From NCBI GenBank assembly GCA_034722035.1, contig JAYENK010000029.1, forward strand, positions 5,739 to 69,738: a stretch of 64,000 nt of DNA, written 5' to 3'. Of this stretch, positions 46,707 to 64,000 are shown in pieces (within the stretch, counting starts at the first letter, position 1; each line of letters opens with the position of its first letter). The notes below the pieces were generated by a model. It was not told where the DNA came from. It did not search any database and saw only the letters and a program-made list of their open reading frames with translations. Source of the DNA: Patescibacteria group bacterium (GTDB lineage: Bacteria; Patescibacteriota; Patescibacteriia; Patescibacteriales; UBA12075). A program made the translations under genes and the position numbers.

Positions 46707-47402
46707 TTAGTTAGAATTATTTTCATTGCATTGTCCGTCCATTGTACATGCATCTTCTCCTTCGCCCGAAACAAGCTGGCAATGATATGTGTATCCACTT
46801 GGTAGAGCACCTTGTTTACGACATTCTTTGTGAGATATTGCTGACTCCTTTTTTTTCTTTTTGCAAGCACAAAGTAACCCTATATGATCGTTTGCGCTAC
46901 CTGGGCAGTAACTTTCATCTTTTTCATCCCATGTTATTAAATCTACTCTATTTTTCCAGTAGCACTCTGAATGATTGCTCATATCAACAACACTCGGTGT
47001 CTCCAGCTTAATCGCTGTCATCGTCAATAAATTCGGATTAACCATATATAACAAAGTATAAGACGAAAGGGCTAGAATCAAGCCGGTCAATGATGAAAAA
47101 ATCCATTGTTTAGCGTTGTCCATTTTGCTGGCGTTGCCGGCGGCCGTAATATATAATACTCCACCATACATCATTACCACCGTTGCCAAAATTCCAACGA
47201 TACCAAGGGCGTAAGTATAAATTGCATTTATTAGATTTCCGATTGAGTTGGGACCAATTTTTTTGTGACTAAATCCAATTTGATCAATAACTTGGGCGTC
47301 AAAATCTATTGCTGCCTGTACCGAGCTAATTTGTGCAAATAAAATAATGAATAAAAATAGAAAAAATAAAGGAATGATGTGTTTTGTTGTTTTTTTTGTC
47401 AT
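46707..47402 (-). CDS. TrbC/VirB2-like pilin family protein with a Cys-rich C-terminal domain (secreted)
   Basis: Signal peptide, then two hydrophobic helices (...YALGIVGILATVVMMYGGVLYITAAGNASKMDNAKQWIFSSLTGLILALSSYTLLYMVNP) typical of the TrbC/VirB2 fold. The C-terminus has 9 Cys. Confidence 0.45.
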   Translation of the reverse strand: MTKKTTKHIIPLFFLFLFIILFAQISSVQAAIDFDAQVIDQIGFSHKKIGPNSIGNLINAIYTYALGIVGILATVVMMYGGVLYITAAGNASKMDNAKQWIFSSLTGLILALSSYTLLYMVNPNLLTMTAIKLETPSVVDMSNHSECYWKNRVDLITWDEKDESYCPGSANDHIGLLCACKKKKKESAISHKECRKQGALPSGYTYHCQLVSGEGEDACTMDGQCNENNSN

Positions 47403-47982: not shown

Positions 47983-49164
47983 TTATCCCACAAACCGACA
48001 TTTGTCACTACTTCGCCCAACTTCAATGACGATTGATTTGATCATTTTTTTGGTAATATCGCGTCCGCCCAGGCCGACAATGAAACCTTGAATTTTGGTT
48101 TTGGTTTTGTTTTTGGCAGCTGCTTTAACATCCAAGGTAAGGGGGCCATCGCTTGCTCCCAAAGAAATCGCTTTCTCTACAACCGCTACTTGTTTAACGC
48201 CGGTGATTGATTTGAGCAGTTCATTGGCGGGGAACGGACGATAACATTTTATTTTGACAACACCAACGCCACCATAAACTTTATTTTTATTCATTTCGTC
48301 TACCGCGTCTTTAATTGTTCCAATCAAAGAGCCCATTGCAATCAAAACTGTCTTGGGTCGGATAGCGCCGTAGTATTCCAAAAGACCATTATTGATATGG
48401 GCGTTTTTTTCAGTTTTTTTAATTACACCCGGTACTTTCTTTTTTAGATTTTCATATTCATCAAAAATACTTTTGGCCGAATTTAACATTGCATTATGCA
48501 GTTCTTCGCGTATTTCCAGATAATAAGCCGGTGGAGCAAAAGTACCTAAACTATGTGGATTTTTTGTATCCAGATATCCGCCGGATGTCGGTTTATAATT
48601 AGGGAGAAATTTTTTAACGTCCGCTCGATTAGGGATTGATACATTTTCATAAGTATGAGTTAAAACAAAGCCATCAATGCAAACCATGGCTGGTAATTTG
48701 TCTTTTTCCGCTACTTTGTAGGCTAGTAAATGCTGCTCCAGTGCTTCTTGGTGGTTCTCGGCATAAAATTGAATCCAGCCGGCGTCGCGCACTGTCATTG
48801 AGTCTTGATGGTCATTCCAGATTGTGATTGGGGCAGATATACCACGATTAGCCAGTGTTATTACAACCGGTAAGCGCATACCGGCAATATTAAAAATAAC
48901 TTCAGTCATCAGAAGCAATCCCTGTGAGCTGGTGGCAGTATAGGTACGGACGCCAGTCGCGCTTGCACCGGTGACAATTGAAGCGGCTGCAAATTCACTC
49001 TCGGCGCGAACATATTCATAAGTAGCTTTGCCATCAGCCTTGAGTTTAGCTAAATCTTCAACAATATGCGTTTGTGGCGTAATCGGATAAGCGGAAACAA
49101 CCGCCGGTTTAATATTATTGATAGTTTGAGCAATCGCTTGAGAGCCTTCTAATATTTGTTTCAT
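47983..49164 (-). CDS. porA: Pyruvate/2-oxoacid:ferredoxin oxidoreductase alpha subunit
   Basis: MKQILEGSQAIAQ...AYPITPQT... Confidence 0.9.
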   Translation of the reverse strand: MKQILEGSQAIAQTINNIKPAVVSAYPITPQTHIVEDLAKLKADGKATYEYVRAESEFAAASIVTGASATGVRTYTATSSQGLLLMTEVIFNIAGMRLPVVITLANRGISAPITIWNDHQDSMTVRDAGWIQFYAENHQEALEQHLLAYKVAEKDKLPAMVCIDGFVLTHTYENVSIPNRADVKKFLPNYKPTSGGYLDTKNPHSLGTFAPPAYYLEIREELHNAMLNSAKSIFDEYENLKKKVPGVIKKTEKNAHINNGLLEYYGAIRPKTVLIAMGSLIGTIKDAVDEMNKNKVYGGVGVVKIKCYRPFPANELLKSITGVKQVAVVEKAISLGASDGPLTLDVKAAAKNKTKTKIQGFIVGLGGRDITKKMIKSIVIEVGRSSDKCRFVG

Positions 49165-49520: not shown

Positions 49521-50066
49521 TTAATTCATGTTGTATGCTCTAGTTATTGCGTTTATGTTTTTTTCGACTAAGCTCTGACTTTTGGTGCCAAATTTTTGTT
49601 TGATTGCTTTTTCAAGAGATTTTAGAGTGATTAAGCCGGTGGCTTTGGCGAAAGCACCGAGGATTACGGTGTTGACAATGTTTCGGCCAATTTCTTCCAT
49701 CGCAATTTCGGTTGCATTTAAGACAAACAAATTTTCTTTTGGAATAGGTAGATCAATTTCTTCCTTTTTTTTGGTTGAATTGAGGATTAATAAAGTCTCT
49801 TTGTCGGATCCTTTGGTGGCGTCAACTGTGCCGATCAAGGAAGAGTCTTGAATAATTAAAATATCCGGCTCGTAGATGTGTTCACGCGTGCGGATAGGTG
49901 AGTCGTCGATCCTGGCAAAAGCTTCAATCGGCGCGCCGGTACGCTCCACGCCAAAAGAAGGAAAGGCTTGTGAATAATGCCCCTCATTGAAAGCGGCAAT
50001 TGCAGTAAGTTCGGCGGCAGTGACAACGCCCTGTCCGCCCCGACCGTGAAATCTAATTTGATGCAT
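49521..50066 (-). CDS. porG: POR gamma subunit
   Basis: MHQIRFHGRGGQGVVTAAELTAIAAF. Confidence 0.85.
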   Translation of the reverse strand: MHQIRFHGRGGQGVVTAAELTAIAAFNEGHYSQAFPSFGVERTGAPIEAFARIDDSPIRTREHIYEPDILIIQDSSLIGTVDATKGSDKETLLILNSTKKKEEIDLPIPKENLFVLNATEIAMEEIGRNIVNTVILGAFAKATGLITLKSLEKAIKQKFGTKSQSLVEKNINAITRAYNMN

Positions 50067-50750
50067 TTATTTGTTGTTATTTTTATTATTTTGAATTAGT
50101 AATCCATTAATTATTTCGGAAAATATGTTAGGTGGAATATTCCCGGCGATTTTGATGTCATTGATATACCAAGTGGGAGTGCCAGTTATACCCAGGTTTT
50201 GCCCGGCTTTAAGATCAGCCGTAACTGAACCTAGATATTTTTTTCCTTCCAAGCAGTTATTAAATTTTTTTCCATCAAGACCAATTTGGCGCGCCAATTC
50301 ATTTAATTCATTGGCAGTGCTAATGCCTTGGTTGAGAAAAAGGGAATCATGCATCGCCCAAAATTTGTCTTGCTCGCCAGCGCATTCGGCCGAAAGCGCC
50401 AAAAGAGTAGAGTACTCGGTTATTATAGGATAATGGCGATAAATTATTCTTATTTTATCTTGATATTTTAGGCTAATCTCTCTTATTGTTGAAAAAGCGT
50501 TTTTACAATAAGGGCAGGTAAAATCACTAAATTCAACAATAGTAATAAGCGGGGAAGAGCTTCCAATCGAATGGCTAAGCGGGTTATTATTGATTAGTTT
50601 CAATTTTTCCGTACTAACAGTATATTTAGAAGAGCTCGTGCTATCAATTGGGTTTTTGTATATTTTGAAACTTTTTACTCCAATAATTACTATAACAATA
50701 ATAAATAATAATAGAGTCAATAAAAATATAATGAAAAAAAATTTTTTCAT
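50067..50750 (-). CDS. DsbA-like thioredoxin-fold thiol:disulfide oxidoreductase, N-terminal membrane anchor
   Basis: CPYC active site in FSDFTCPYCKNAF. Its stop abuts the porG start. Confidence 0.75.
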   Translation of the reverse strand: MKKFFFIIFLLTLLLFIIVIVIIGVKSFKIYKNPIDSTSSSKYTVSTEKLKLINNNPLSHSIGSSSPLITIVEFSDFTCPYCKNAFSTIREISLKYQDKIRIIYRHYPIITEYSTLLALSAECAGEQDKFWAMHDSLFLNQGISTANELNELARQIGLDGKKFNNCLEGKKYLGSVTADLKAGQNLGITGTPTWYINDIKIAGNIPPNIFSEIINGLLIQNNKNNNK

Positions 50751-51192: not shown

Positions 51193-53598
51193 ATGGAAAA
51201 ATATAATTATAATAAAACAGAAAAAAAGTGGAGTCAAAAATGGGTAGAAGACAAGACTTTTACACCTGACTTAAAAAACGCGAAAGATCCTTACTACGCG
51301 CTTTTTATGTTTCCTTATCCGAGCGCTGAAGGGCTGCATATTGGGAATTTTTATGCTTTTGTTTGTACAGACGTAATGGCAAAATACAAAAAACTACAAG
51401 GTAAGGACGTGTTTGAGCCTTTTGGCTTTGATGCTTTTGGCATGCACTTGGAAAATTATGCCCTAAAAATAGGGGAGAGGCCACAAGCAGTAGAGGCGCG
51501 TACTACCAAAAATTTTCGTAAGCAAGCACAGTCGGCCGGACTTTCTTGTGATTATACTCGTGAAGTTGACACAACCAAGCCGGAGTATTACAAATGGACC
51601 CAGTGGCTTTTTACTAAACTTTTTGAAAAAGATTTGGCTTATCAGAAAGAAGCTTTGCTCAATTGGTGTCCATCTTGCCAGACGGTTTTGGCGGACGAAC
51701 AGATAGAAGACGGGATTTGTGAAAGGTGCAATGCTCAGCCGGAGAAAAAAACAATGAAACAATGGTTTTTTCGTATTACGGCTTACGCGGATAAAATGCT
51801 TGAAGGACTTGAGGACATGGATTGGTCGGAAATTACAAAAGCAGCGCAGAAGAATTGGATTGGTAAAAGTGAAGGAGCGGAAGTTGAATTTAGAATCAAG
51901 AATTTAGAATCAAGAATTAAAGTGTTCACTACTCGTCCGGATACTTTGTTTGGCGTGACTTATATGGTGTTGGCGACGGAGCATTCTTTAATTAAAAATT
52001 TAAAATTAAGAATTAAAAATTATCAAGAAGTTCAAGCATATATTAAAAAAACTGAAGCTAAGTCAGAGTTAGAACGAACAGAAAACAAAGAGAAGACCGG
52101 AGTAAAATTAGAGGGGGTGTATGCGGTTAATCCGGTAAACAATGAAAAAATATCGATTTGGATTGCGGATTATGTAATGATGGGTTATGGGACGGGCGCG
52201 ATTATGGCAGTGCCGGCGCATGATGAGCGTGATTATGAGTTTGCGAAAAAGTTTGATTTGCCCATTGTCGAAGTGTTGAGTGGGGGAAATATTGAAAAAG
52301 AGGCATATATTGGGGACGGCAATCATATTAACTCCGGTTTTTTGAATGGTTTAAATAAAGAGAACGCAATTAAAAAAATTACTGATTGGCTTGAAGAAAA
52401 AAAATTTGGTAAAAAAGAAGTAAATTATCGTTTGCGTGATTGGTGTATTTCTCGGCAACGCTATTGGGGACCGCCGGTACCGGTTGTGTATTGTGAGAAA
52501 TGTGGAATTTTATCAGTGCCAGAAAAGGATTTGCCGGTAATGTTGCCCGAAACTCAAGAATGGGAGCCATCCGGCGATGGACGAGGACCGCTTGCCAAGG
52601 TGGACGAATTTATGAATACAAAATGTCCTAAATGCGGTGAGCCAGCTGTACGCGAAGCTGACGTAATGGACAATTTTCTTGATTCGGCTTGGTATTTTTT
52701 TCGTTATATTTCGCCAAGTAATTCTGAGGCGATATTTGATGCTAAGCTAGGTAAGAAGTGGCTGCCGGTTGATTTGTATGTTGGCGGCAATGAACATGCA
52801 GTTCTTCATTTGATGTATACCCGTTTTATTACAATGTTTTTGCACGATTTGGATTTGATTGATTTTAATAATCCTTTTAAAAAGTTTCGGGCGAATGGTA
52901 TGATTTTAAAAGACGGCAAGAAAATGAGCAAGTCTAAGGGAAACGTGATTAGTCCGGAGGAGTATGGTAAAAAAGTCGGTTATGACGCGCTTAAAACTTA
53001 TTTACTCTTTCTTGGCCCTTTGAGTGAAGACAGGTCTTTTACCGATACCGGCGTTCAAGGCACAAAAAGATGGGTGGAGAAAGTTTATAAATTAAAGGAA
53101 AAAGTATTGGATAAATATGATGACAGCGAAGAAGCGGCCAGAAAGTTGCACCAGACAATTAAAGTGGTTGGGGAAAATTTTGAAGAGCAAAAATATAACA
53201 CAGCCGTGGCCAGGTTAATGGAGCTTACCAATGTATTTGTTCAAGCTAAAAATATATCAAAAGAAAACTGGAAAAAATATTTAGCGATTATAGCTCCCTT
53301 TACTCCGGCTTTGGCCGAGGAGCTTTGGCGCGAATTTGGAAATAAGACTTCAATTTTTAGCGGTAGGAATTGGCCGGATTATGATAAAAAATCAATCAAA
53401 GAAGAAACAGTTGGAATAGTCGTGCAAATTAATGGCAAAGTGCGGGATAAGCTGAAATTAAATGCAGATATTAGCGAGGCGGACGCAATAAAAAAAGCCA
53501 AAGAATCAGAAAAAGTGAAAAAATGGCTTTTTGATAAAGAGATTATAAAAGAAATTTATGTAAAAGGGAAGTTGGTTAGTTTGGCGGTTAAAGATTAG
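51193..53598 (+). CDS. leuS: Leucyl-tRNA synthetase
   Basis: 801 aa; HIGN (HIGH) and KMSKS present; carries an in-frame tandem 14-bp repeat and a copy of the AT-rich element in the editing-domain region. Confidence 0.95.
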   Translation: MEKYNYNKTEKKWSQKWVEDKTFTPDLKNAKDPYYALFMFPYPSAEGLHIGNFYAFVCTDVMAKYKKLQGKDVFEPFGFDAFGMHLENYALKIGERPQAVEARTTKNFRKQAQSAGLSCDYTREVDTTKPEYYKWTQWLFTKLFEKDLAYQKEALLNWCPSCQTVLADEQIEDGICERCNAQPEKKTMKQWFFRITAYADKMLEGLEDMDWSEITKAAQKNWIGKSEGAEVEFRIKNLESRIKVFTTRPDTLFGVTYMVLATEHSLIKNLKLRIKNYQEVQAYIKKTEAKSELERTENKEKTGVKLEGVYAVNPVNNEKISIWIADYVMMGYGTGAIMAVPAHDERDYEFAKKFDLPIVEVLSGGNIEKEAYIGDGNHINSGFLNGLNKENAIKKITDWLEEKKFGKKEVNYRLRDWCISRQRYWGPPVPVVYCEKCGILSVPEKDLPVMLPETQEWEPSGDGRGPLAKVDEFMNTKCPKCGEPAVREADVMDNFLDSAWYFFRYISPSNSEAIFDAKLGKKWLPVDLYVGGNEHAVLHLMYTRFITMFLHDLDLIDFNNPFKKFRANGMILKDGKKMSKSKGNVISPEEYGKKVGYDALKTYLLFLGPLSEDRSFTDTGVQGTKRWVEKVYKLKEKVLDKYDDSEEAARKLHQTIKVVGENFEEQKYNTAVARLMELTNVFVQAKNISKENWKKYLAIIAPFTPALAEELWREFGNKTSIFSGRNWPDYDKKSIKEETVGIVVQINGKVRDKLKLNADISEADAIKKAKESEKVKKWLFDKEIIKEIYVKGKLVSLAVKD

Positions 53599-54565
53599 TT
53601 AAATACCATTCTCCGTTTAATTCTTTTTCAATATAAAATTCAACCGGCACCGAGTAGCCACCCATTGAAAAATAGACATTATTTTTATAAGTAAGTTTGT
53701 CGTCAATTTCTGTTGCTAGAGTGGATCCGGAAAGGATATTACCGAGAACAAGCCTGCTATCGTCATTGAAAGACTCAAAAATATTTCTAATAGCTATTTC
53801 CATGTCTGGTCTGAAATATTTTATTGCTTCGTCCGGGTCATTATTTCTGATGGTGCTGGCTGCATTTTTTATAACATTATATTTTCCCGTAGAAAGAACG
53901 GGAGTATCCGATACGTCCGGTTTGGGGAAAATGTTAGGTTCATTTGGGATAATATGAGTTGAAATCTTATTAATATTAATATTATTTATGCCCAGGCCAA
54001 ATTTACGCATAATTTTGAAAGCAACCGAGGGGCGGGACAAGTAGTATCGTTTTAAATTATCCGGACTCACATACCAGGCCTCACCATTTTGCTCAATTTG
54101 CAGGAATATTTTTCCTGTATTTTTTTTGACAAAGTTTTCATCAATTAATATTTTGTCCGCACCAATTGGATTATAATTATTAATTATTTCATCATAATCA
54201 CTGTGTCCATCATTATCACTGTCCGGATTATCTTTGTCTGTAAGCAGTGTCTCTTCCAGCCGGTTTCCAAGTCCGTCATTGTCATTATCTTTATCGATGT
54301 CTGCTATAACGCCAATAGGGATTTTACTTAGATTATCATTGGTGATGCCGATGCCAAGTTTACGCATAGTACTAAAAGCGTCACTAGGCTTGTTTAGATA
54401 ATATTTTTTATAATTTTCCGGGTTAACGTACCAAGCTTCACCGTTATTTTCGATTTGAAGCAAAATTTTTCCCGCTAGTTTTTGTCCTAGATTGATATCT
54501 GCTTTGACTGGCAAGATAATTAAAAATAGAGCTAAAGCTAAGAATAATCCTTTTTTTATATGCAT
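53588..54565 (-). CDS. Secreted protein with a duplicated approximately 45-aa module and two EF-hand/dockerin-like calcium-binding loops
   Basis: Signal peptide. Repeats AGKILLQIENNGEAWYVNPENYKKYYLNKPSDAFSTMRKLGIGIT and TGKIFLQIEQNGEAWYVSPDNLKRYYLSRPSVAFKIMRKFGLGIN. Loops DNDNDGLGNRLE and DSDNDGHSDYDE. Confidence 0.55.
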   Translation of the reverse strand: MHIKKGLFLALALFLIILPVKADINLGQKLAGKILLQIENNGEAWYVNPENYKKYYLNKPSDAFSTMRKLGIGITNDNLSKIPIGVIADIDKDNDNDGLGNRLEETLLTDKDNPDSDNDGHSDYDEIINNYNPIGADKILIDENFVKKNTGKIFLQIEQNGEAWYVSPDNLKRYYLSRPSVAFKIMRKFGLGINNININKISTHIIPNEPNIFPKPDVSDTPVLSTGKYNVIKNAASTIRNNDPDEAIKYFRPDMEIAIRNIFESFNDDSRLVLGNILSGSTLATEIDDKLTYKNNVYFSMGGYSVPVEFYIEKELNGEWYLTNL

Positions 54566-54605: not shown

Positions 54606-55142
54606 ATGGTAATTAAGAAAAAATATAAATTATCGACAATAATTATTTTGTTGTTATTATTTTTCTTTTGGGGCGGGAGCGCAATTAATAAAAAATTGGA
54701 ATGGAAAATAGTTGAGGATTTAATTGCCGGCAGCGCATTCCCGGTTGAGATGGGAAATATTAATTCTACGGTGGCTCAATGTGTTCCGTCATGCTATGAT
54801 CCAATAGCTTCTTGTTGTGCTCCTCCATGTTCAGAAGTGGTGCCTTCTAGAGGCGATTATGAAGCAACTTGCCCCCTGTATTCGTTTGTAAGCGGACAGT
54901 CAACCGGCGGGACAGGAGGAAATACGGCGATATTTTCCAATATTGCGATGGGACAAGCCGGCCTAACATCGGGTGGACAGTTTATTTACGGTGGAACTAC
55001 TAATAATATGTCTTTGGGCGAGCAAAACGCAGTCTTAGCTTCAGTGGATGGTTGCTATAATTGTTACGCAAAAAATAAAAGTAATTGGAAGCAAAAATTT
55101 GCCGTGGTTGCCGACATGTTTATGGCGATGTTCAAGGATTAA
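54606..55142 (+). CDS. Membrane-anchored Cys-rich secreted hypothetical protein
   Basis: N-terminal TM, 9 Cys, G/T-rich stretch. Confidence 0.45.
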   Translation: MVIKKKYKLSTIIILLLLFFFWGGSAINKKLEWKIVEDLIAGSAFPVEMGNINSTVAQCVPSCYDPIASCCAPPCSEVVPSRGDYEATCPLYSFVSGQSTGGTGGNTAIFSNIAMGQAGLTSGGQFIYGGTTNNMSLGEQNAVLASVDGCYNCYAKNKSNWKQKFAVVADMFMAMFKD

Positions 55143-55190: not shown

Positions 55191-55463
55191 ATGATAAAAA
55201 ATACAAGAAAAATTAAAAAACAAGAATTTTCTGTTTTGATTGAAAAAGATGAAAGCGGTTTTTATTTTGCTAAAGTGCCAACAATTAAAGGCTGTCATAC
55301 TCAAGCTAAATCATTGTCAGAATTGTATAAACGCTTAGATGAAGCAGTATTACTTTGTTTGGAAGTGCAAGAAAAAGATAAAGAATATTTAATTAGCAAG
55401 AATGAGTTTGTTGGTTTTCAAAAAATAGAAGTGAAAATACCTCCAAAATTAAAATATGCCTAA
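55191..55463 (+). CDS. hicB: HicB-family antitoxin
   Basis: FSVLIEKDESGFYFAKVPTIKGCHTQAKSLSELYKRLDEAVLLCLE. Confidence 0.7.
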   Translation: MIKNTRKIKKQEFSVLIEKDESGFYFAKVPTIKGCHTQAKSLSELYKRLDEAVLLCLEVQEKDKEYLISKNEFVGFQKIEVKIPPKLKYA

Positions 55464-55692
55464 ACTAACACTGATAAGCGGGGAAAAAATGCTTAAATTA
55501 CTTGCTTTGTGCGATTTTGAGATTGTTAGAATTAAAGGAAGTCATCATTTTTTAAAAAATAAAACCAAAAGAAGTATGACGGTAGTGCCAGTTCATGGAA
55601 ATGAAGAATTAGGTGTTGGTTTGTTAATTAGCATATTGTCAGATGTGGATTTGTCCAGAAAAGAATATGAAAAATTACGGCGAAAAATTTAA
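55456..55692 (+). CDS. hicA: HicA-family toxin (mRNA interferase)
   Basis: KLLALCDFEIVRIKGSHHFLKNKTKRSMTVVPVHGNEELGVGLLISIL. Has an 8-bp overlap with hicB. Confidence 0.75.
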   Translation: MPKLTLISGEKMLKLLALCDFEIVRIKGSHHFLKNKTKRSMTVVPVHGNEELGVGLLISILSDVDLSRKEYEKLRRKI

Positions 55693-55801: not shown

Positions 55802-56626
55802 ATGTCAAGTTTGATCCAAAAAACAATTAATATTTCCAAAAAATATAATATCAGCCCAAAACGTAGCAAGGGGCAGAATTTTTTGATTAATGAAAGTGTT
55901 TATAATCAAATAGTTGAAGTGGCTGATTTGCAATACGAAGATATTGTTCTAGAAGTTGGGCCAGGGCTCGGATTTTTAACAGAAAAATTAGCAGAAAAAG
56001 TTAACAGAGTAGTTGCGGTAGAGCTGGATGATGGATTGACTGAGGTATTGCGGGCGAGATTAAAGGAGAAAGAGATTGGTAATGTTGAGGTAATTAATGA
56101 AGATGTACTTAAAATTTTCAATTTTCAATTTTCAATTTTCAATTTTAAAATTATCGCGAATTTGCCGTATAATATTACTTCGATTTTTCTTAGAAAAGTT
56201 TTGGAGTTGGAAAATAAGCCTAAAAGCTTAACTTTGATGTTGCAAAAAGAAGTTGCGAAGCGGATTACGGCAGAGCCGGGAAAGATGAGTAAATTGACGG
56301 TTTCGGTTCAGTTTTACGCGGACGCAGAGATTCTTTTTAATGTACCTAAGACAGATTTTTGGCCTGAGCCCAAGGTGGACAGTGCAGTAATTGAGTTAAA
56401 AATAAAAAGTAAAAAGTATAAAGTAGATGATAAGAGGTTTTTTCAACTGGTGCGGATTGGCTTTAGCGCAAGGCGGAAGAAACTTAAGAATAATTTGGCG
56501 AGCGGTTATCAGATAAAGGCGGAAGAAGCGGGAGAAAGACTAAAATTAGCTAATTTAAATCCAGATTGTCGCGCTCAAGATTTAGGCGTACAAGATTGGA
56601 TAAAATTACTTGGTTATTTTAGTTGA
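55802..56626 (+). CDS. rsmA: 16S rRNA (adenine1518/1519-N6)-dimethyltransferase
   Basis: KGQNFLINESV..., SAM motif VLEVGPGLGFLT, NLPYNITS. Contains an (AATTTTC)x4 microsatellite in-frame (FNFQFSIFNF). Confidence 0.9.
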   Translation: MSSLIQKTINISKKYNISPKRSKGQNFLINESVYNQIVEVADLQYEDIVLEVGPGLGFLTEKLAEKVNRVVAVELDDGLTEVLRARLKEKEIGNVEVINEDVLKIFNFQFSIFNFKIIANLPYNITSIFLRKVLELENKPKSLTLMLQKEVAKRITAEPGKMSKLTVSVQFYADAEILFNVPKTDFWPEPKVDSAVIELKIKSKKYKVDDKRFFQLVRIGFSARRKKLKNNLASGYQIKAEEAGERLKLANLNPDCRAQDLGVQDWIKLLGYFS

Positions 56627-56704: not shown

Positions 56705-57397
56705 ATGCCTGAAAATTACTCAGAACAAACCAATACACCAGAAGATTCTATTTCCGGTCATTTTGTTAAGCTAAAAACAAGTCAGAAGGTTGCTTTTGTA
56801 GTCCTGGCTTTTTTTGCTGTTTTTGTATTTGGCGCTTGGGTGGTTCAGCTGAAAAATAGCATAGTTTCGCCTTTGGCACGTCCCGCTGCGGTAGCGACTG
56901 ATAACTCAAATAACGCAAGTATTTGCACCGGCCCGAATTGTACTGACGGTACAATAGAAGAATTAAAAGCAAAAGACACAGACAAAGACGGATTAAATGA
57001 TTATGAGGAACTGGAAATATATAAAACTTCACCTTATTTAGAGGACAGTGACAGTGATGGTTTCAGTGATTACGAGGAAGTGCAGTCGGATAATGACCCC
57101 AATTGTCCGGATGGGGCAAATTGTGGTTCGGTTCCGGTGCCAAACAGTTCTAAAGAATTAATTGAGACTGATTTAAGTTTGCCGGAGCAGAATTTAGGCG
57201 TAGATCCATCGATTTTTGCCAAAGATAGCGTTGTACTCGAAAATATTTTACTCGGACAAAGCGATGTTGAATCTTTGCGCGCGCTTTTGCTTCAGTCCGG
57301 TATGGACGAAAATTTGCTTGGACAAATTAATGATAAGGATTTAATGAAATATTATGAAGATACGCTTAGTTCAATGAATGAGGCGAGCGTAAAGTAA
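56705..57397 (+). CDS. Membrane-anchored extracellular protein with paired canonical EF-hand / TSP3-like calcium-binding loops
   Basis: TM anchor; DTDKDGLNDYEE ...(11 aa)... DSDSDGFSDYEE, followed by DNDPNCPDGANCG. Confidence 0.5.
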   Translation: MPENYSEQTNTPEDSISGHFVKLKTSQKVAFVVLAFFAVFVFGAWVVQLKNSIVSPLARPAAVATDNSNNASICTGPNCTDGTIEELKAKDTDKDGLNDYEELEIYKTSPYLEDSDSDGFSDYEEVQSDNDPNCPDGANCGSVPVPNSSKELIETDLSLPEQNLGVDPSIFAKDSVVLENILLGQSDVESLRALLLQSGMDENLLGQINDKDLMKYYEDTLSSMNEASVK

Positions 57398-57424
57398 ATA
57401 AACAAATTCATAAAATTATATATA

Positions 57425-60400
57425 CATGAAAAATTTTGTTAAGTTTAAAAAAAATATAACAGTTTTATTTACTTTAATGTTTTTGTTTGCAACTTGCTTG
57501 GTATTTGGTCCTAATGTTGTTTTCGCGGATTCTTTTTTTGATTCTTTCTTGGGTCCGCCGGCAATTGAGACAAAAGATACTAGGTTAAAAAGATTGATTA
57601 GTGGAATTGACAAAAGTAATAAAGCCAAGGAAAAAGAAGATAAAGTTAAGCAAAATCTTGGGTCTAAATTGTATTACAGCACTCTAAGTAAGGCCTTAGG
57701 TATGATTGCTTATGATACTGCTACTTGGATTGGTTCCGGTGGTGAGGGTCAAAAGCCATTGTTTATTAAGGAAGGCTGGAGAGAATATTTGGTGAATGTA
57801 AGCGATAATGCGGCTGGTAAATTTATAGAAACATTAGGGAAAGAAAACGGCTATCTTGAGTTTGATCTTTGTGAGCCAAGTTTTGCCGGTAAATTCTCAA
57901 TCAATTTGGGTCTTCATAGCAAGTACAGTGGTCGAGATAAGCCTGCCTGTACTTTTTCTGAAATGAGAGATAACTGGGAAGCTGAATTAAATCGTCCTGA
58001 TTTTTTAAGTCGGTTTAAAACCGTGTTTAAGCCAGAATCTAATGATGTTGGCATTGCTTTATCGGCTCACACTAAGATTATTGAAGAGCAGGCAATTAGC
58101 TTAAGGTTTAAATCGCTTGAGCGTGAGGAAGGTGATTCTTGGCTTGATGTGCGAGATATTGCCGGAGACCTAAAAAGTCCTCCTGGTTGGGCTAAACGAG
58201 AAGCCAATGATTTAAAAGGACCACTGATAGATAATTTTGGACAGATATCTGGTGATATTTTAGTTGACGCAGCTAACATATTTCTTAATCAATTAGCAAT
58301 TACTGCGATTAACAACTTGATGCGCTCGTTGGGGCGTGATTTAGATACTTATACTTCGCCTTATTCTTGGGATAATCCAGACGCCGGACCAATCCGGGGC
58401 GGAATAGTGGCCGCCAAAGAACGTTTCCGTAAAATTATTGAGCCGATATTCGATGTACGTGGAGATTATAATATTTTGAGCGAATTGTCAGTTTGTCCGG
58501 ATCCGAATAAAGCTGGTCCGACTAATTGTGTTTTGGACGATCAATTTCAAAGCGCGATTGAGGCTAAGTTAACTGTAGCGGAAGCGATGGAGGAGGGATA
58601 TCTAAAAAAAGACGGCGTGTTTGGGTTTTTGTCCGGGAACGATTTAGAGCCAAATTATATTGAGGGCTACCCTTATCGTAGTATGAAAATACTGCGCAAA
58701 TTTCGAATAATTCCGGTTGGTTGGGAATTAGCCGCGCAATATATCGCCGAGCACCCCGAGGACGTTGGCGGGGTTAAGACTTTGGAAGATTTAGTTGTTT
58801 GTTATGACGGCAATGACCCACATATCGGACAAGATGATTATCAAGAAGTTTGGTGTAAGGGTTTGGTTGATCCAAATTGGGTTTTAAAGGCGCCGCTTAA
58901 TTATTGTGGGCGTGAAGGTCCTGGTCCGGAGATAGTGAGCGAGGAAGTGCTCGGCAGTGGTGAAGATAGCTATTTATCTATTAAACGCAATGAAAATTAT
59001 TGCGCCGATGAGCAGGCTTGTATCCAGGAGAATCAGGATGGCTCTTGTGAATACTATGGTTATTGCACGGAAGAACGGCGCAAATGGGATTTTGACGGGG
59101 AAAGTTGTAATCCTTTATATAATACTTGTCAAACTTATCGTTCTAGCGGCGGACAAACCGTTTCTTATTTGAATAATACGTTAGACTATGGTTCTTGCGG
59201 CGCGGATAATGCCGGTTGTTTGGCTTATTGTGAGGAATACGATAATGTGAATAATTTTAAGTGTAATGGCGTGAATGACGCTATTTTGCGGGCTGACGCC
59301 GGCATTGAAGCTTGCGATTATTCGAGCGAAGGATGTCATGAATTTATCCGTTTTAAACCAGGACTTGGTTCTAATTTACTTATTAATTCAAGTTTTGAAG
59401 ATTATGATGGAATTGCCAATAATGATGACGGAGGAAATATTGATAATGTGGCTGAGATTGGTCTAGGGGATTGGGAAATAATAAGTGAAGCCTATATTGG
59501 GAATTCTGCTTTACATTTAATGGGTGTTCTTGATTTAAGTGATGTTTTTGGACCAGATAGTTGGATGGTTGGCGGGCAAGGTTATACTTTTTCTTTTTAT
59601 GCAAAAGATTGTAGTGCCAATGCTGATGATACCGCTGGTTTGGGCGTGAATGGAGACGATGAAACAATCACAATTGCCTCTCATCCGGATTGGCGTTTTT
59701 ACACTTTGTCCAAGGTTTTTTCGGATGATGTTAATACTCCGACTCTAAATATTAAGTTTAATATAAATGACACTTGTGATATTGACGGGTTAAAATTAGA
59801 AATGGGAGCTGAGGCAACTGTTTGGAGTGACTACAGGGATAATGGTTTGGTTTATCAAAAATTAGCGCCGGATCATTTGACTTGTGATGGAGATAGTGAT
59901 CCATCAGAATGTAGTCGTTTTGTGCGAGAATGCACAATTGGTGAGTTTGGCTGCGATCTTTATACAGCGCAGTCCGATGGGATGACTATTCCGGCTCGAG
60001 TGGCGAATGATGATTATTGTCCGGGAGCGTGTGTTGGTTATGACGAATATGTTCAGCGTTCAAGTAGTTTTGATTCGGAAACACTTAAAAAAATTATTCC
60101 AAATACAGCCAGAAATTGCAACGCGCAGGCGGTTGGCTGTGATGAATTTACTAATTTAGATAGAATCGGTGAGGGTGCAGAAGCGCGTGAGTATTATAGC
60201 GAGCTTAAACAGTGTGTGATTGAAACCGAGGAAACACCTAATCCGGATTGTAGCGCTTTTTATACTTGGGAAGGAAGTTCGGAAACCGGTTATCAACTCA
60301 GGGTATTTAGACTCAAGGCGGATGGAAGTGGAGAGCCGATTTTGACTAATAACGGGCTATACAATGATTTGGATTGTGCATCAACGACGTATGATTTGGA

Positions 60401-63400
60401 AATAAATCCAATGTGCCGTGAGTTCTATGATCCAAGCGGAGAACGTTTCTATGAGTTTTTACCCTATGTGATTACTTGCAGTAATAATTGCCATCCTTAT
60501 CGGCGTAGTGTTAAAAATATTTTACCCAGTATAGTCGAGGCTTTTGCTCTTTGCCAGTCTGATTGTGGCGGTAATCCATTGTGTTTAGTAGAATGTAGTA
60601 ATACAGATGACTGTAATATTGACAGCGGAAGCAGAATATGCGAGTTTGACGATGGAAAAGCGGTATATTGTAAAGATGGCGGTCTATGGCGGTACGACCA
60701 TCAATCTTGTCTTTATCAGGCGATTCCGGATGAGGGGGTAAAATGCAACGCAAGCGCGGCTGGTTGCCGTGAATATACCGGCCCTAGCGGGTATAATATC
60801 CGGCGATTGTTTGCAGATAATTTTGAGTCAGGTCATACCGATGATTGGACCGGTCTAAATACGATTGAACCCAGTAGCGAATCACTTTTGGTTGGTGGCC
60901 ATTCTCTTTATGTTAACAATCCCGGTGCGAGCACTTCTAAAGACGTACACACAATAGTACGGACAGGCAAAACTTATATTTTGCGTTTTATTGCACGTAG
61001 TCCGCTTGATCAAATAATAACAGCTTATTTTGCTTCCACCACTGCTTCGGGGGCTGATATTGCAACAACCAGTTTTAACGGTCAGGCTGAGATAGACTCT
61101 GAGTGGCAAATTTTTGAGCTTAATTCCAATATAATTGAGCGTGATATTTGGGGAGAGGAAGTGTTAATAATAGCGGGAACAGACGAATTTTATATTGATG
61201 ATATTCAATTAATTGAAGTAACGGACCGATATTATTTAATTACCGATCCTTGGAATACGCCGGATGTTTGTTATAAGGACATATTTGGCAATGGTCAAGG
61301 AGAGGATTTTAATCTTGGCTGTGAGATTTACATCGACAGGGACGATAATATTAATTATATTCATAGTTTTTCCAATTTATGCCAGGATGACGCGGTTGGC
61401 TGTGAGCTTATGATTGATACAAATAATTATGATGATAGCGCCAGTTCAACTTGGTTTGGTAGTGAGCAAGCAGATTGTGATGTTGCGATAAATGATGATT
61501 GTCGCGAAGTAGAGGAAGATGAATATAAATATGTAGTGTATAATTCGGATAAATTATGCAATTCTACAGAAAAAGGTTGCCAGCTTTTAGGCAGCCCATA
61601 TAATTATGAAGATACAACCCTATATTCGTCCGTATATTTGAAAAATGATCCTAATGAGTATGGTCGGATTTTATGTGAATATCAGGATGAAAATTGCGCG
61701 GCCTGGACTATGAATAATTCGTCTGATTATTTTAAAGATCCGGGGGATATGGTTTGTGAGTGGCGAACCGAAGCAAGTGGAAATATAAGTAATTCAGCCT
61801 GGTATAAAAAGAAAATTAAGCGTTGTGACGAGAATGATAATGGAAGTATTGAATTGCTTGAAACCAGTGTTTGTCAGAATGATAATGACTGTAGTGCTGG
61901 CTTTTGTATTCTTGATGAAAATAATCATCCTTGTGAGTTTGATAAGCTTAAAACAATTGGCTATGGCGGATATGGCAATGTAATTTCTCAGCCAACTATG
62001 GATGGCGATAATAATTGGGTCGGGCTTTGTCCGGCTGATGAATCCGGTTGCAGTGAATACATCGATCCAATCTCTCGTTTTAATCCAAACACTATATTTA
62101 ACGCGTCTTTTGCCGATCTTGATGGCGATGGCAATCCCGCTGATGGTTGGAGTGGTAGTTCGCAAAGAGTAGATGTTGAGCCTTATACCCTGTATCGATT
62201 TGGCGGAAAAGGTACCGGTGATTCGATTTTGGATTGTGACAATCCTATTTATTGGCTTTCGACAGACAATATGCTTAACGATACGACAAATCCGCGTACG
62301 TTTAATATTGGCGCTATCTATCAAAGTCGTTTAGTCTATACAGACTCTAATACTGTTTGTACAACATCGGTAGAAAATGCGACTGAAGTAGATGGTAGAG
62401 AAATTGAATTGCGTGAAGTTGTTGTTGATTATCAGCTTCAGCAAGAACTTGATCAAGGAAGTTGTACCGGTTTAGTGGAATATGATAATGGATGCGTTTT
62501 ATTTAATAAAAGAACTTTTGATAAAGATGGGTGCAATGAGCTTGATTCTGATGCGGATCATTCGATTGGCTCAACTACGTCCGCACCACCGGTGGCAGGA
62601 GTGGTTGACGCGGACAATGATTCAAATGTTGTTCTAAAAGTTACACCTAATCGGATCTGTGATAAATGGTTGGCCTGCAAATCATATGTAAAAGAAGATG
62701 AGGAAACTATTTGTTATGACCTTGGGCTTTGTGATAGTTTGAATCGGAGCGGTAACTGTGATTCCTTTGTTATAGAAAAGAAGAAAAATCAAAGTTACGC
62801 ACTTTTTGATGGTGGGTATTTTGCCAATAAAAGCGGGTATTCGCTTAGTGGCTTAATGGACAGTCAATTTGAAACCGATTACTATCCTGTGGGAGAAATG
62901 GAGCAAGTTGGTAATGTTGCTCAAGTGGCGAATGGGGGTTTTGAAGTTTACGGTGATAATAATTATCCGATAAGCTGGATGCCTGTTAATTCCAGTTGGG
63001 ACGAAAATGATTTTCGCGTAATTAGCAATCCTTTTGGCTCTGAAAGAGAGAGTATTGAACGCGCCCTCAAAGGCAGAAGTTTCTTAAAACTCGGTTTTAG
63101 CCATATGGCCGTTTCCGAATTCATTAACGTGGAGCAGAATACGGAATATACCCTTTCCGCTTTTATTAATACCATAAATTTGTATGAAGGCGAGGCCAGG
63201 ATCAGCGTTCAAAAATATGATTGTTCCGGTTCTAGGCAGGGTGGTAGCTTTGATGTTCACGGCGCATCTTTGTCGTCAGGAGAAAAATGGACATTTGTTT
63301 CGGGACGATTTAATATTTTAGGAACGGCAAATCGGATCAAGTTAACCTTGTATGTCGATTCACCCGGGGACGTAGAAGGAAATTTTTATTTTGATGATAT

Positions 63401-64000
63401 AAAATTGCGTCCGGCTCTAAATGTACGAGATATTATTGCTAGTGGAAACACTCAATATGTTTCTCAGACTTGCCGCTTATATCCAAAAGATGATGCTTTG
63501 TCTTGTGAATATTTTGAGGAATCGGGCATTAAAAATAAAGGCATATACGGTTATTGTCTGGAATATGATCGCGCGCCCGGTTCTAAGGACACTTGCATTT
63601 TGTGGTATCCGGTGGACAGGGTTAAAGGTGATGGGATTGAAGGGGGGGCTGGTTATAACGGGAAAATGCCGGTTTATTATTGTACAGACGCAATTCCTAT
63701 TTTTGGTTTTCAAGGAGAATGGAAAGATTGGCTTGTTCCGAAGGGTGGGAGTTGTGGTGACATTATTATAAATAACGATCGTTTTAACGCGTATATGAAT
63801 ACGGATGAACCAGATGGATTGACTGGTGGTGGATGCGACGGTGATTACGGCGGTCTTCGCAATCGTCCTCCAGGTTGGGGTGGGGGCACGTTTAATGATT
63901 GTCCAGGAAATTGTGCTGATACCAGGCAAAGCGACTATCTTTTGCCTAGTCCAATAACTACAGATGCAAACGACAGATCATGGTATTATTTATCTTTTTA
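57425..64000 (+). CDS. Giant (more than 2,170 aa, 3' partial) Cys-rich extracellular protein with several CBM4/9-like jelly-roll modules. The signal peptide is separated from the body by a 1-nt frame change in a T6 tract, so the gene is a possible pseudogene or phase-variable gene.
   Basis: ATG 57425 encodes MKNFVKFKKNITVLFTLMF, then T6 at 57479-57484. The original frame stops at 57512-57514. The adjacent frame (open from 57477 to the window end with no stop) continues ...FATCLVFGPNVVFA|DSFF.... Downstream there are repeated xGC(x)E(F/Y) Cys motifs and modules such as NSSFEDYDG...GNSALHL..., DNFESGHTDDW...GGHSLYV..., ANGGFEVYGDNNYPISWMP... Confidence 0.55.

What the first reader, a model, noticed from the sequence alone, without database searches (positions are those of the whole stretch)
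57425..64000. Giant Cys-rich multi-CBM surface protein whose signal peptide is split by a frame change in a T6 homopolymer
A protein of more than 2,170 aa (still open at the window end) carries at least four galactose-binding-like / CBM4/9-like modules. These share the pattern N..FE...W.....SL.....G.TY.LSF.....G; one example is DSQFETDYYPVGEM...ANGGFEVYGDNNYPISWMPVNSSWDENDF...EYTLSAFINT. The modules are interspersed with Cys-rich linkers showing a recurrent GC(x)E(F/Y) motif and YGYC(T/L)E repeats. Giant Cys-rich extracellular proteins are a hallmark of episymbiotic CPR bacteria, which are thought to attach to host cells. The only plausible signal peptide (MKNFVKFKKNITVLFTLMF|FATCLVFGPNVVFA-DS) is split across two reading frames exactly at a T6 run (57479-57484). 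Removing one T restores a single ORF. Homopolymer slippage is a classic ON/OFF phase-variation switch for surface adhesins, but it is also the commonest assembly-error type.
Basis: partly seen in the sequence, partly recalled or inferred. Interest (0 to 1): 0.7.

Follow-up and report, generated by a model that had tools for sequence, protein, structure and literature searches.

The report
Intact giant secreted lectin-module protein
The reported frame change in the signal peptide is a misreading: the gene is intact and encodes a giant secreted, cysteine-rich protein with sugar-binding-type modules, from a large uncharacterised family of ultra-small (Patescibacteria) bacteria that in related genomes sits directly upstream of their type IV secretion genes.

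Summary
The headline claim is wrong. The T run is T5 (57480-57484; 57479 is G). The ORF runs unbroken from ATG 57426 to the window end: 2,191 codons, no stops. It is identical to the first 2,191 residues of a deposited 2,759-aa Patescibacteria protein.

The protein has a Sec-type signal peptide, 3.8% Cys (about 70 Cys invariant in 30 homologs), the GCxE[FY] and YGYC[TL]E motifs, and four beta-rich modules. Three modules are CBM4/9/22-like by Pfam, a PDB profile search, hhalign and AlphaFold2 plus Foldseek. The fourth is inconclusive.

New here:
- The family is very large: at least 545 GTDB species and 1,715 clusters at 50% identity.
- It is colinear, and its conserved core matches no Pfam family.
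- It is tightly syntenic. A single-pass TSP3-repeat membrane protein lies directly upstream (63/65 loci).
- A VirB6-like gene lies downstream (47/49 loci), followed by PrgI/VirB3-, TraC-like and VirB4-like genes.
- The lectin-type modules are the least conserved parts.

Best reading (inferred): a disulfide-stabilised host-surface adhesin or contact factor linked to the Patescibacteria T4SS. Interest is moderate.

The parts
57426..64000 (+). 5' 2,191 codons of an intact 2,759-codon gene for a giant secreted Cys-rich protein. The window ends inside the gene.
   Evidence: One open frame with 0 stops. 100% identical to P0001, 2,759 aa.
57426..57527 (+). Sec-type signal peptide MKNFVKFKKNITVLFTLMFLFATCLVFGPNVVFA|DS: Lys-rich n-region, hydrophobic core at residues 10-25, and a V-F-A cleavage-type motif.
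   Evidence: Translation and hydropathy. It is the only hydrophobic segment in the protein. 96 of 98 assessable homologs have the same feature.
57480..57484 (+). It is T5 and lies in frame (TTT TTG = Phe19 Leu20).
   Evidence: There are 304 T runs of 5 or more in the window.
57678..58925 (+). Conserved N-terminal domain (residues about 85-500), predicted mainly helical, with no known family.
   Evidence: 38-65% identity to homologs. No Pfam or PDB hit. AlphaFold2 failed, mean pLDDT 41. Its profile finds 1,715 clusters, always at the N-terminus.
58926..59357 (+). Cys-rich region A (residues about 501-644). This is the best conserved stretch; it contains YGYCTE and a C-x6-GC-x-EF hairpin motif.
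   Evidence: Identity 0.64-0.67 over residues 501-600, falling to 0.47 over 601-650. Most Cys invariant. Motifs.
59358..59825 (+). Module 1 (residues 645-800), a CBM-like jelly-roll. Homolog P0002 has a Laminin_G_3 domain at about the same relative position after the N-terminal domain.
   Evidence: hhalign gives 95% probability to module 2 and 80% to module 4. Laminin_G_3 in P0002 at 606-764 (N-domain offset; positional correspondence estimated from offsets, not aligned).
59826..60797 (+). Cys-rich region B (residues 801-1124).
   Evidence: Invariant Cys. Includes the GCDEF and GCREY motifs.
60798..61235 (+). Module 2 (residues 1125-1270), CBM4/9/22-like.
   Evidence: PDB profile hits to CBM22 4xup (5.9e-6), CBM70 4d0q (8.9e-5) and CBM4 1gui. 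AlphaFold2 pLDDT about 76-89. Foldseek CBM hits.
61236..62078 (+). Cys-rich region C (residues 1271-1551).
   Evidence: Invariant Cys. Mostly low AlphaFold2 confidence.
62079..62441 (+). Module 3 (residues 1552-1672), an all-beta module with the shared N-terminal signature. CBM status is unproven.
   Evidence: AlphaFold2 pLDDT 67-85, all strands. hhalign gives only 48% to module 4. No PDB hit and no consistent Pfam hit.
62442..62912 (+). Cys-rich region D (residues 1673-1829).
62913..63425 (+). Module 4 (residues 1830-2000), Pfam CBM_4_9.
   Evidence: PF02018 at 35.2 bits against a cutoff of 25.9, best stretch 1896-1977. AlphaFold2 pLDDT 70-91. Homolog P0056 has a MAM domain at residues 1912-2004, roughly the same position (not aligned).
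63426..63725 (+). Cys-rich region E (residues 2001-2100), containing YGYCLE.
56705..57397 (+). Upstream partner gene, 28 nt before the giant ORF. It encodes a 230-aa single-pass membrane protein with bacterial TSP3 (Ca-binding type) repeats.
   Evidence: PF18884 hit. TM segment at 23-51. An ortholog lies directly upstream of the giant gene in 63 of 65 loci, median gap 45 nt.
55802..56626 (+). KsgA/RsmA rRNA dimethylase, a syntenic housekeeping neighbour.
   Evidence: Present in 55 of 59 loci. PMC12102498 notes KsgA is abundant near virB4.
53588..54565 (-). Secreted 325-aa protein, ortholog of the TSP3-repeat gene in the syntenic block. No Pfam hit for the window copy.
   Evidence: 44-47% identity to the L001 and L002 genes, which carry weak TSP3_bac hits. 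No Pfam family for the window protein at E<=0.1.
46707..47402 (-). T4SS pilin (VirB2-like) gene elsewhere in the window.
   Evidence: PF18895 at 43.2 bits.
50067..50750 (-). Membrane-anchored DsbA/MdbA-like thiol-disulfide oxidoreductase. It could catalyse the disulfides of the giant protein (inferred).
   Evidence: Thioredoxin_4 and DSBA hits. TM segment at 1-33 and a CPYC motif. A DsbA gene also ends the T4SS block in L002.

Best explanation
SHOWN. The gene at 57426 onward is intact. It encodes the first 2,191 residues of a 2,759-aa protein with a Sec-type signal peptide. The mature protein has a conserved, mostly helical N-terminal domain of unknown fold. This is followed by conserved Cys-rich segments (about 70 invariant Cys). 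Between these segments sit three CBM4/9/22-like beta-jelly-roll modules and a fourth, unclassified beta module. The protein has no other membrane segment and no LPXTG motif. It belongs to a very large, colinear, Patescibacteria-type family. In that family the jelly-roll modules are the least conserved parts, and some lineages carry LamG or MAM domains at roughly corresponding positions. In orthologous loci the gene lies directly downstream of a single-pass TSP3-repeat membrane protein. It also lies upstream of, and co-oriented with, a small two-TM protein, a VirB6-like (TrbL_3) protein, PrgI/VirB3-, TraC-like and VirB4-like genes. These are the monoderm-type T4SS of Patescibacteria.

INFERRED. 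After Sec export and disulfide formation (a DsbA/MdbA-like enzyme is encoded nearby), the protein forms a rigid extracellular scaffold. It is probably held at the cell surface through its membrane-anchored TSP3 neighbour and/or T4SS components. Its variable lectin-type modules would bind glycans on the host cell envelope. In this way it would supply the host-recognition or adhesion function of the T4SS, for which no PrgB-like adhesin has been found in Patescibacteria. There is no homopolymer ON/OFF switch in the signal peptide.
For: Intact ORF and identity to the deposited protein.

Signal peptide. 96 of 98 assessable homologs have one.

CBM-like modules:
- Pfam CBM_4_9 above its cutoff.
- PDB profile hits to CBM22, CBM70 and CBM4.
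- hhalign links between modules.
- AlphaFold2 beta-sandwich blocks.
- Foldseek TM 0.64-0.74 to CBM22, CBM4-2 and CBM16.

Invariant Cys.

Modules least conserved (identity 0.24-0.37, against 0.45-0.67 in Cys-rich and N-terminal parts). LamG, MAM and BppA-type hits in homologs.

Family size: at least 545 species representatives and 1,715 clusters at 50% identity.

Synteny:
- Same block in L001-L003 with Pfam-labelled TrbL_3, PrgI, TraC-like and P-loop_TraG/DUF87 genes.
- Window upstream genes are orthologous to those loci.
- up225 in 63/65 loci and the VirB6-like gene in 47/49.
- Gaps are 45 nt upstream, and 0.6-1.0 kb downstream in the lower half of loci, i.e. one small gene.
- NCBI locus tags are near-adjacent in four annotated genomes.
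- In L006 the upstream context differs but the VirB6-like gene remains downstream.

Literature: the Patescibacteria T4SS is MPF-FATA-like, lacks a relaxase, and 'no adhesins such as PrgB were detected' (PMC12102498). The T4SS is essential in Southlakia (PMC10633639). Its role is 'completely unknown' (PMC11665869).
Against: - Function is inferred from domains and gene order only.
- Housekeeping genes (LeuRS, KsgA) are nearly as syntenic (43/51 and 55/59), so part of the linkage may simply be conserved gene order within this clade.
- Two of 49 loci (L027, L072) have no T4SS genes within about 8 kb downstream.
- The T4SS genes of this particular genome lie beyond the window and could not be retrieved.
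- The most conserved parts, the N-terminal domain and the Cys-rich segments, have no recognisable fold or family, and AlphaFold2 failed on them. The core activity could therefore be something other than adhesion.
- Sugar-binding residues were not examined.
- Module 3 is not demonstrably a CBM.
Confidence: 0.55

Rival explanations
1. A T6 homopolymer splits the signal peptide across two frames. The gene is therefore a slipped-strand ON/OFF phase-variable adhesin gene, or else an assembly error or pseudogene.
For: None in the sequence. Short A/T runs do occur in the 5' region (A8 at 57447-57454, T5 at 57480-57484, T7 at 57533-57539). In principle such runs can slip.
Against: The run is T5, not T6. 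The frame is continuous from 57426 to 64000. The deposited protein has the same uninterrupted N-terminus. The other two frames contain stop codons within the first 45 codons. Homologs have uninterrupted signal peptides. A/T runs of 5 or more occur about once per 80 nt in this 37% GC window.
Confidence: 0.02
2. A general cell-envelope or surface-layer structural protein, or a free adhesin, that is functionally independent of the T4SS. On this view the adjacency reflects frozen gene order near KsgA/LeuRS in this clade.
For: LeuRS and KsgA are also conserved neighbours. L027 and L072 keep KsgA, up225 and the giant gene but have other genes downstream. Large Cys-rich extracellular proteins occur in CPR genomes without any stated T4SS link (PMC4736985).
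Against: The VirB6-like gene follows in 47 of 49 loci across proteins only 32-49% identical. The linkage survives replacement of the upstream context in L006. Arrangement is tight and co-oriented. No SLH or S-layer families were hit.
Confidence: 0.2
3. A structural extracellular part of the T4SS itself rather than an adhesin. Examples would be a stalk, channel or tip component standing in for the VirB8/9/10- or VirB5-like parts, which are largely undetected in Patescibacteria.
For: It sits at the head of the T4SS block. The N-terminal, Cys-rich and extreme C-terminal ([IV]VV[KRT]E) parts are conserved, suggesting fixed protein-protein contacts. VirB8 homologues are scarce and outer-complex homologues are not associated with virB4 in Patescibacteria (PMC12102498).
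Against: There is no similarity to any T4SS family in Pfam or NCBIfam. The lectin-type modules are variable and differ in type between lineages, which fits ligand recognition better than a fixed machine part. Two loci lack the T4SS downstream.
Confidence: 0.13
4. A secreted polysaccharide- or cell-wall-degrading enzyme. The CBMs would target an unrecognised catalytic domain (the N-terminal domain) to host or environmental glycans, acting as a VirB1-like wall opener or for nutrient scavenging.
For: CBM4/9/22 modules are typically appended to glycoside hydrolases (PDB hits are xylanase, laminarinase and hyaluronate lyase CBMs). VirB1 homologues are mostly not associated with virB4 in Patescibacteria. 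The N-terminal domain is highly conserved.
Against: No hit to any catalytic family in Pfam, NCBIfam, PHROGs or the PDB. The only weak hit, to the EXOG nuclease (E about 0.09), lies outside that enzyme's catalytic motif and is not significant.
Confidence: 0.1

Closest known systems
Surface adhesins of Gram-positive conjugative T4SS (e.g. PrgB / aggregation substance of pCF10)
   Same: Large Sec-exported surface proteins with lectin-like binding domains, encoded with a monoderm-type (MPF-FATA) T4SS and mediating cell-cell contact. The Patescibacteria T4SS is of this type (PMC12102498).
   Different: No sequence similarity, no LPXTG sortase signal and no PrgB-type domains. About twice the size, strongly Cys-rich, chromosomal, and in a system without a relaxase. 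The T4SS link is by synteny in orthologs only.
Large cysteine-rich extracellular proteins of CPR bacteria (Peribacteria, PMC4736985)
   Same: Signal peptide, large size, high Cys content, a proposed role in attachment to other cells, and a disulfide-forming enzyme encoded in the genome.
   Different: Homology between the two sets was not tested. Those proteins are richer in Cys (about 7%) and occur as a multi-gene cluster. This family was seen at one locus per contig in the loci examined. It is colinear and CBM-bearing, and it sits next to T4SS genes.
CBM_4_9 / CBM22 / CBM16 carbohydrate-binding modules of glycoside hydrolases
   Same: Beta-jelly-roll fold. Pfam PF02018 scores above threshold. 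Foldseek TM 0.64-0.74 and 13-22% identity.
   Different: Not attached to a recognisable catalytic domain. Flanked by disulfide-rich segments. Ligand and binding residues are unknown.
Reelin repeats (jelly-roll subrepeat, EGF module, jelly-roll subrepeat)
   Same: Alternation of CBM-like jelly-rolls with small Cys-rich modules. Foldseek hits 6a48 and 5b4x and weak EGF-like hits in Cys-rich region A.
   Different: Architectural analogy only. Global TM is 0.10-0.12, the protein is eukaryotic, and there is no evidence of homology.
Giant T4SS-associated proteins of other bacteria (H. pylori CagY; Rickettsiales VirB6-4 extensions, PMC7648143)
   Same: Very large, surface-exposed, variable proteins encoded within T4SS loci.
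   Different: Those are extended homologs of VirB10 or VirB6. This protein has no T4SS-family domain.

Membership tests
Phase-variable (slipped-strand) contingency gene | A homopolymer or short repeat inside the ORF whose observed length puts the downstream coding sequence out of frame or toggles it | tested here: not met
   The run is T5 at 57480-57484 and the frame is continuous from 57426 to 64000 with 0 stops. The deposited protein is identical.
Phase-variable (slipped-strand) contingency gene | Repeat-length heterogeneity among reads or strains | not testable with these tools
   No reads are available. Homologs show uninterrupted N-termini.
Pfam CBM_4_9 (PF02018) / CBM4-9-22 jelly-roll superfamily | Profile match above the curated gathering score | tested here: met
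   35.2 bits against a cutoff of 25.9, 2 stretches, best at 1896-1977. Many homologs carry PF02018.
Pfam CBM_4_9 (PF02018) / CBM4-9-22 jelly-roll superfamily | Beta-jelly-roll fold similar to solved CBMs | tested here: met
   AlphaFold2 blocks with pLDDT 70-91. Foldseek hits 4xuo (TMt 0.74), 2y6k (0.65), 2zex (0.68) and 4d0q (0.67). Which of the three modelled modules gives each hit is not reported. Module 3 alone is unproven.
Pfam CBM_4_9 (PF02018) / CBM4-9-22 jelly-roll superfamily | Actual carbohydrate binding and conserved ligand-contact residues | not tested
   Binding-site residues were not mapped. Biochemistry is needed.
Sec-dependent secreted protein | N-terminal positively charged n-region, hydrophobic h-region, and small-residue cleavage motif | tested here: met
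   Five Lys in the first 9 residues (K2, K6, K8, K9), hydropathy maximum at residues 10-25, and VFA|DS. No dedicated predictor was available.
Gram-positive T4SS adhesin (PrgB-like) | PrgB-type adhesin domains and an LPXTG cell-wall anchor | tested here: not met
   No such Pfam hits and no LPxTG motif.
Patescibacteria T4SS gene cluster (accessory member) | Encoded adjacent to and co-oriented with virB6/virB3/virB4 homologs | tested here: met
   Met in orthologous loci: 47 of 49 with a VirB6-like gene, and VirB4-like seen in at least 20 of 44 (flank-limited). For this genome itself the region lies beyond the window end and could not be fetched.
Patescibacteria T4SS gene cluster (accessory member) | Functional dependence on, or physical association with, the T4SS | not testable with these tools
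   Needs expression, interaction or genetic data.
RTX/Bap/Ig-repeat giant adhesins | Long tandem arrays of Ig-like, cadherin or VCBS repeats and a T1SS C-terminal signal | tested here: not met
   Only CBM_4_9 was detected. The architecture is non-repetitive and colinear.

The most novel reading that the evidence does not exclude
This family is the missing host-contact subunit of the Patescibacteria (ABY1/Parcubacteria-type) type IV secretion system. On this reading it is a disulfide-braced extracellular scaffold, anchored through the TSP3-repeat membrane protein and the T4SS. Its lineage-variable CBM, LamG or MAM modules would recognise host envelope glycans and so help determine host range and where the secretion channel docks.
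Probability: 0.3. Interest if true: 0.65.

Novelty: new variant of a known kind. Interest (0 to 1): 0.4.

Why it matters
As submitted, the finding's main point (a homopolymer switch in the signal peptide) is a reading error and does not matter. What remains is useful as a lead. [quoted passage not shown] Its role is described as completely unknown, and a recent survey explicitly found no adhesin for it. This family is very large and its conserved core matches no Pfam family. It encodes secreted, lectin-module-bearing giants placed at the head of that gene cluster. That makes it a concrete candidate for how these epibionts recognise and dock onto hosts. It also suggests that the type of lectin module present in each lineage could be a readable marker of host specificity. 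None of this has been tested experimentally.

Tried and rejected
1. AlphaFold2 on the N-terminal domain plus Cys-rich region A (residues 80-650, 27-sequence alignment) gave mean pLDDT 41 and pTM 0.21. I ran no fold search on it.

2. Searches of the N-terminal profile against the PDB and Pfam found nothing significant. The EXOG nuclease match (E about 0.09) aligns outside the catalytic motif and I treat it as noise. EGF/FXa-like matches had E>0.04.

3. NCBIfam gave only a 17.6-bit partial match to a T9SS DNase model whose cutoff is 260, which I rejected. PHROGs gave no hits.

4. Fetching the window's own contig failed. P0001 is not on record in the contig index. The MAG is not a GTDB species representative (best locus 49% identity). 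A search with a VirB6-like protein from the closest relative did not return a U9Q85-tagged protein among its best 120 hits.

6. The top Foldseek hits to Cry protoxins, reelin and Vip4 are chained multi-jelly-roll alignments with global TM of about 0.11. They are not evidence of toxin homology.

7. The module 3 profile gave no PDB hit and only scattered single-member Pfam hits.

8. The promoter and terminator scan around the start was uninformative (11 sites against 7.2 expected). It found no terminator between the upstream gene and the giant ORF.

9. The supplementary tables of PMC12102498 contain no entry for CBM_4_9 or TSP3.


Full report
**1. The observation**

I read the DNA directly and translated all three forward frames. 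The ATG is at 57426-57428. The following codons are AAA AAT TTT GTT AAG TTT AAA AAA AAT ATA ACA GTT TTA TTT ACT TTA ATG TTT TTG TTT GCA ACT TGC. These translate as MKNFVKFKKNITVLFTLMFLFATC.

The T run occupies 57480-57484, so it is T5. Base 57479 is the G of the Met18 codon. One frame stays open from 57426 to the last base of the window: 2,191 codons with no stop. The nearest upstream in-frame stop is at 57411-57413. The other two frames contain stop codons within the first 45 codons.

That missing residue is the entire 'frame change'.

A database search returned a deposited protein, P0001 (2,759 aa, 'hypothetical protein U9Q85_02985, Patescibacteria group bacterium'). It is 100% identical over 100% of the query and has exactly this N-terminus. 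T runs of 5 or more occur 304 times in the window and A runs of 5 or more occur 501 times. The headline claim is therefore refuted: there is no split signal peptide, no switch and no pseudogene.

**2.

- The protein is 3.83% Cys, with 84 Cys in the window part.
- GCxE[FYL] occurs five times and YGYC[TL]E twice.
- Three of the C-x6-GC-x-E[FY] hairpin motifs sit immediately before modules 1, 2 and 3.
- Residues 1-34 have a Lys-rich start, a hydrophobic core and a VFA|DS motif.
- There is no other hydrophobic segment and no LPXTG motif.

**3. The modules**

- Pfam CBM_4_9 matches above its curated cutoff (35.2 against 25.9 bits; best stretch 1896-1977, module 4).
- A profile of 30 family members hits solved CBM22 (4xup, 5.9e-6), CBM70 (4d0q, 8.9e-5) and CBM4 (1gui, 0.014) structures on module 2.
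- Profile-profile comparison links modules 1, 2 and 4 at 80-95% probability. Module 3 links to module 4 at only 48%.
- AlphaFold2 on residues 1090-2110 gave mean pLDDT 57. The three modules are confident beta-sandwich blocks (pLDDT about 76-89, 67-85 and 70-91), and the Cys-rich linkers score below 50.
- Foldseek against the PDB gave 279 hits at E<=1e-3. Single-domain matches include CBM22 (TM 0.74), CBM4-2 (0.65), CBM16 (0.68-0.70), CBM61, CBM70, a porphyran-binding CBM and the meprin MAM domain.
- Module 3 on its own has no PDB hit and no consistent Pfam hit.

In sum, three of the four modules are supported as CBM-like. The fourth is a beta module that shares the N-terminal signature but is unproven as a CBM.

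**4. The family**

The first search found 692 homologs. The best 120 are mostly 2,300-3,150 aa and 37-53% identical, most covering 58-99% of the query. Those that carry a name are labelled Parcubacteria, Falkowbacteria, Patescibacteria or simply 'bacterium'.

A profile of the N-terminal 570 residues hit 1,715 clusters at 50% identity, 1,125 of them at E<=1e-30. Among the listed hits the match lies at the N-terminus of a giant; shorter entries look like fragments.

The family is colinear. The best conserved stretches are residues about 350-640 (the end of the N-terminal domain plus Cys-rich region A) and a C-terminal WGD...H.Y segment. The jelly-roll modules are the least conserved, at identity 0.24-0.37. 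About 70 Cys are invariant in 30 sequences.

Two homologs that were scanned carry other lectin-type domains at roughly corresponding positions. P0002 has Laminin_G_3 at about the module-1 position, and P0056 has MAM at about the module-4 position. Weak BppA-type CBM_4_9_1 hits also occur. These correspondences are estimated from offsets, not from an alignment.

The conserved core has no known family or fold. AlphaFold2 failed on it, with pLDDT 41.

**5. Context**

The window itself carries, upstream of the giant gene:
- LeuRS.
- A secreted protein on the minus strand (53588-54565). It has no Pfam hit itself, but its orthologs carry weak TSP3 hits.
- A small secreted Cys-rich protein.
- A HicB/HicA pair.
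- KsgA.
- A 230-aa single-pass membrane protein with TSP3 repeats, ending 28 nt before the giant ATG.

Elsewhere the window has a T4SS pilin gene and a DsbA-like gene.

Two orthologs on long contigs show the same upstream block. Downstream of the giant gene they have a gene of about 165 aa, a TrbL_3 (VirB6-like) gene of about 805 aa, and two unknown genes. These are followed by PrgI (VirB3-like), TraC-like and a VirB4-type ATPase (P-loop_TraG/DUF87/AAA_10). In one of them a DsbA gene follows. The window's upstream genes are orthologs of theirs.

Across the 80 fetched loci:
- The TSP3 membrane protein is directly upstream in 63 of 65 loci with at least 1.5 kb of upstream sequence.
- KsgA is present in 55 of 59.
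- The VirB6-like gene lies downstream in 47 of 49 loci with at least 8 kb of downstream sequence.
- A VirB4-like gene was seen in 20 of 44, which is a lower bound set by the 10-kb flank.

The gap from the upstream gene to the giant ATG has a median of 45 nt. The distance from the giant stop codon to the VirB6-like gene is 0.6-1.0 kb in the lower half of loci, which is one small gene. NCBI locus tags are near-adjacent in four annotated genomes.

Caveats:
- Housekeeping neighbours are nearly as syntenic.
- Two loci (L027, L072) have a Por_Secre_tail protein, a class II aminoacyl-tRNA synthetase and a radical-SAM gene downstream instead of T4SS genes.
- Against a pure frozen-gene-order explanation, L006 has a quite different upstream region (UvrD, Ddl, HisG) but keeps the small gene and the VirB6-like gene downstream.
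- For this genome itself the downstream genes lie outside the window, and I could not fetch them.

**6. Literature**

- The Patescibacteria T4SS has been described as a distinct clade related to the monoderm MPF-FATA type. It has VirB4, TrsD, VirB3, VirB6 and VirB2-like pilins but usually no relaxase.
- That study notes that KsgA is abundant near virB4 and states that no adhesins such as PrgB were detected (PMC12102498). Its held supplements contain no CBM_4_9 or TSP3 entries.
- The T4SS is essential in Southlakia epibionticum (PMC10633639).
- Its role is called completely unknown (PMC11665869).
- Large Cys-rich extracellular proteins, proposed to act in attachment, were already noted in CPR genomes in 2016 (PMC4736985).
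- A CPR-enriched MdbA/DsbA-like oxidoreductase family has been reported (bioRxiv 10.1101/335083).

I found no paper describing this giant family or its position at the T4SS locus. My search covers only the held library.

**7. Mechanism**

Shown: this is an intact gene for a Sec-exported, multi-disulfide, multi-lectin-module giant protein. In relatives it is tightly and co-directionally packed between a TSP3 membrane protein and the T4SS genes.

Inferred: the protein is exported and oxidatively folded, and it is held at the surface by its membrane-anchored neighbour and/or T4SS parts. Its lineage-variable jelly-roll modules then bind host envelope glycans, providing host recognition or adhesion for the T4SS. 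I put this at about 0.55.

Rivals:
- A surface protein unrelated to the T4SS (0.2).
- A structural extracellular part of the T4SS (0.13).
- A CBM-targeted enzyme with an unrecognised catalytic N-terminal domain (0.1).

**8. Verdict**

The finding's distinctive claim is an artefact of manual translation. The underlying object is a real and ordinary-looking member of a very large, uncharacterised Patescibacteria family. Its kind, a large Cys-rich CBM-bearing surface protein, is known. Its conserved placement at the head of the T4SS cluster, its lack of any known core fold, and its differing lectin-module types make it a new variant and a reasonable lead. Interest 0.4.

Noticed in passing
window 55191-55692 (+): A HicB-like antitoxin (90 aa) and a HicA toxin (78 aa, PF07927 at 55.7 bits) overlap by 8 nt. 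The pair is inserted between the small secreted protein gene and KsgA. In the Falkowbacteria locus L002 a HicA pair sits at a different place in the same block.
   Followed up: partly
window 46707-47402 (-): A T4SS pilin (VirB2-like, PF18895) gene with a Cys-rich C-terminal tail lies between genes for pyruvate:ferredoxin oxidoreductase subunits (45143-46087, 47983-49164, 49521-50066), about 10 kb from the giant gene.
   Followed up: partly
window 57447-57454 and 57533-57539: An A8 run (Lys-Lys-Asn codons of the signal-peptide n-region) and a T7 run (Ser-Phe-Phe-Asp) lie in the first 115 nt of the ORF. Both are in frame here. The window holds 24 A runs and 14 T runs of 8 or more, so these are probably just AT-rich codon usage. 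They could not be checked against reads.
   Followed up: partly
window 54606-55142 (+): A 178-aa protein with an N-terminal hydrophobic segment and 9 Cys, with no Pfam hit. It is conserved in the syntenic block (41% identity to L001).
   Followed up: partly
L027 18014-19213 and L072 18050-19258: In the two loci where no T4SS genes follow the giant gene, the next ORF is about 400 aa. The L027 ORF carries a Por_Secre_tail (T9SS-type C-terminal sorting) domain, which is unexpected in a monoderm-like Patescibacteria genome. The L072 ORF was not scanned.
   Followed up: partly
P0001 residues about 2350-2550 (beyond the window end): A stretch of about 200 aa present in this protein but gapped in most homologs (occupancy 0.07-0.23), just before the strongly conserved PKD-like WGD...H.Y segment. 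The extreme C-terminus [IV]VV[KRT]E(K) is conserved across the family.
   Followed up: no
loci L013, L020, L022-L027, L075 and others: Many GTDB representative records carrying this Patescibacteria-type gene and its syntenic block are titled 'uncultured Gammaproteobacteria', 'Tangfeifania' or 'Bacillota'. These are probably mislabelled bins.
   Followed up: no
window 58767-58955 (residues about 448-510): The family profile gives a weak, non-significant match (E about 0.09) to the region of mitochondrial EXOG nuclease just after its catalytic motif. I treat it as chance, but it is the only hit to the conserved core.
   Followed up: partly
L001 18171-18668 and equivalents: The small gene between the giant gene and the VirB6-like gene encodes about 165-200 aa with two hydrophobic helices, a layout reminiscent of VirB2-type pilins. 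It has no Pfam hit on record.
   Followed up: no
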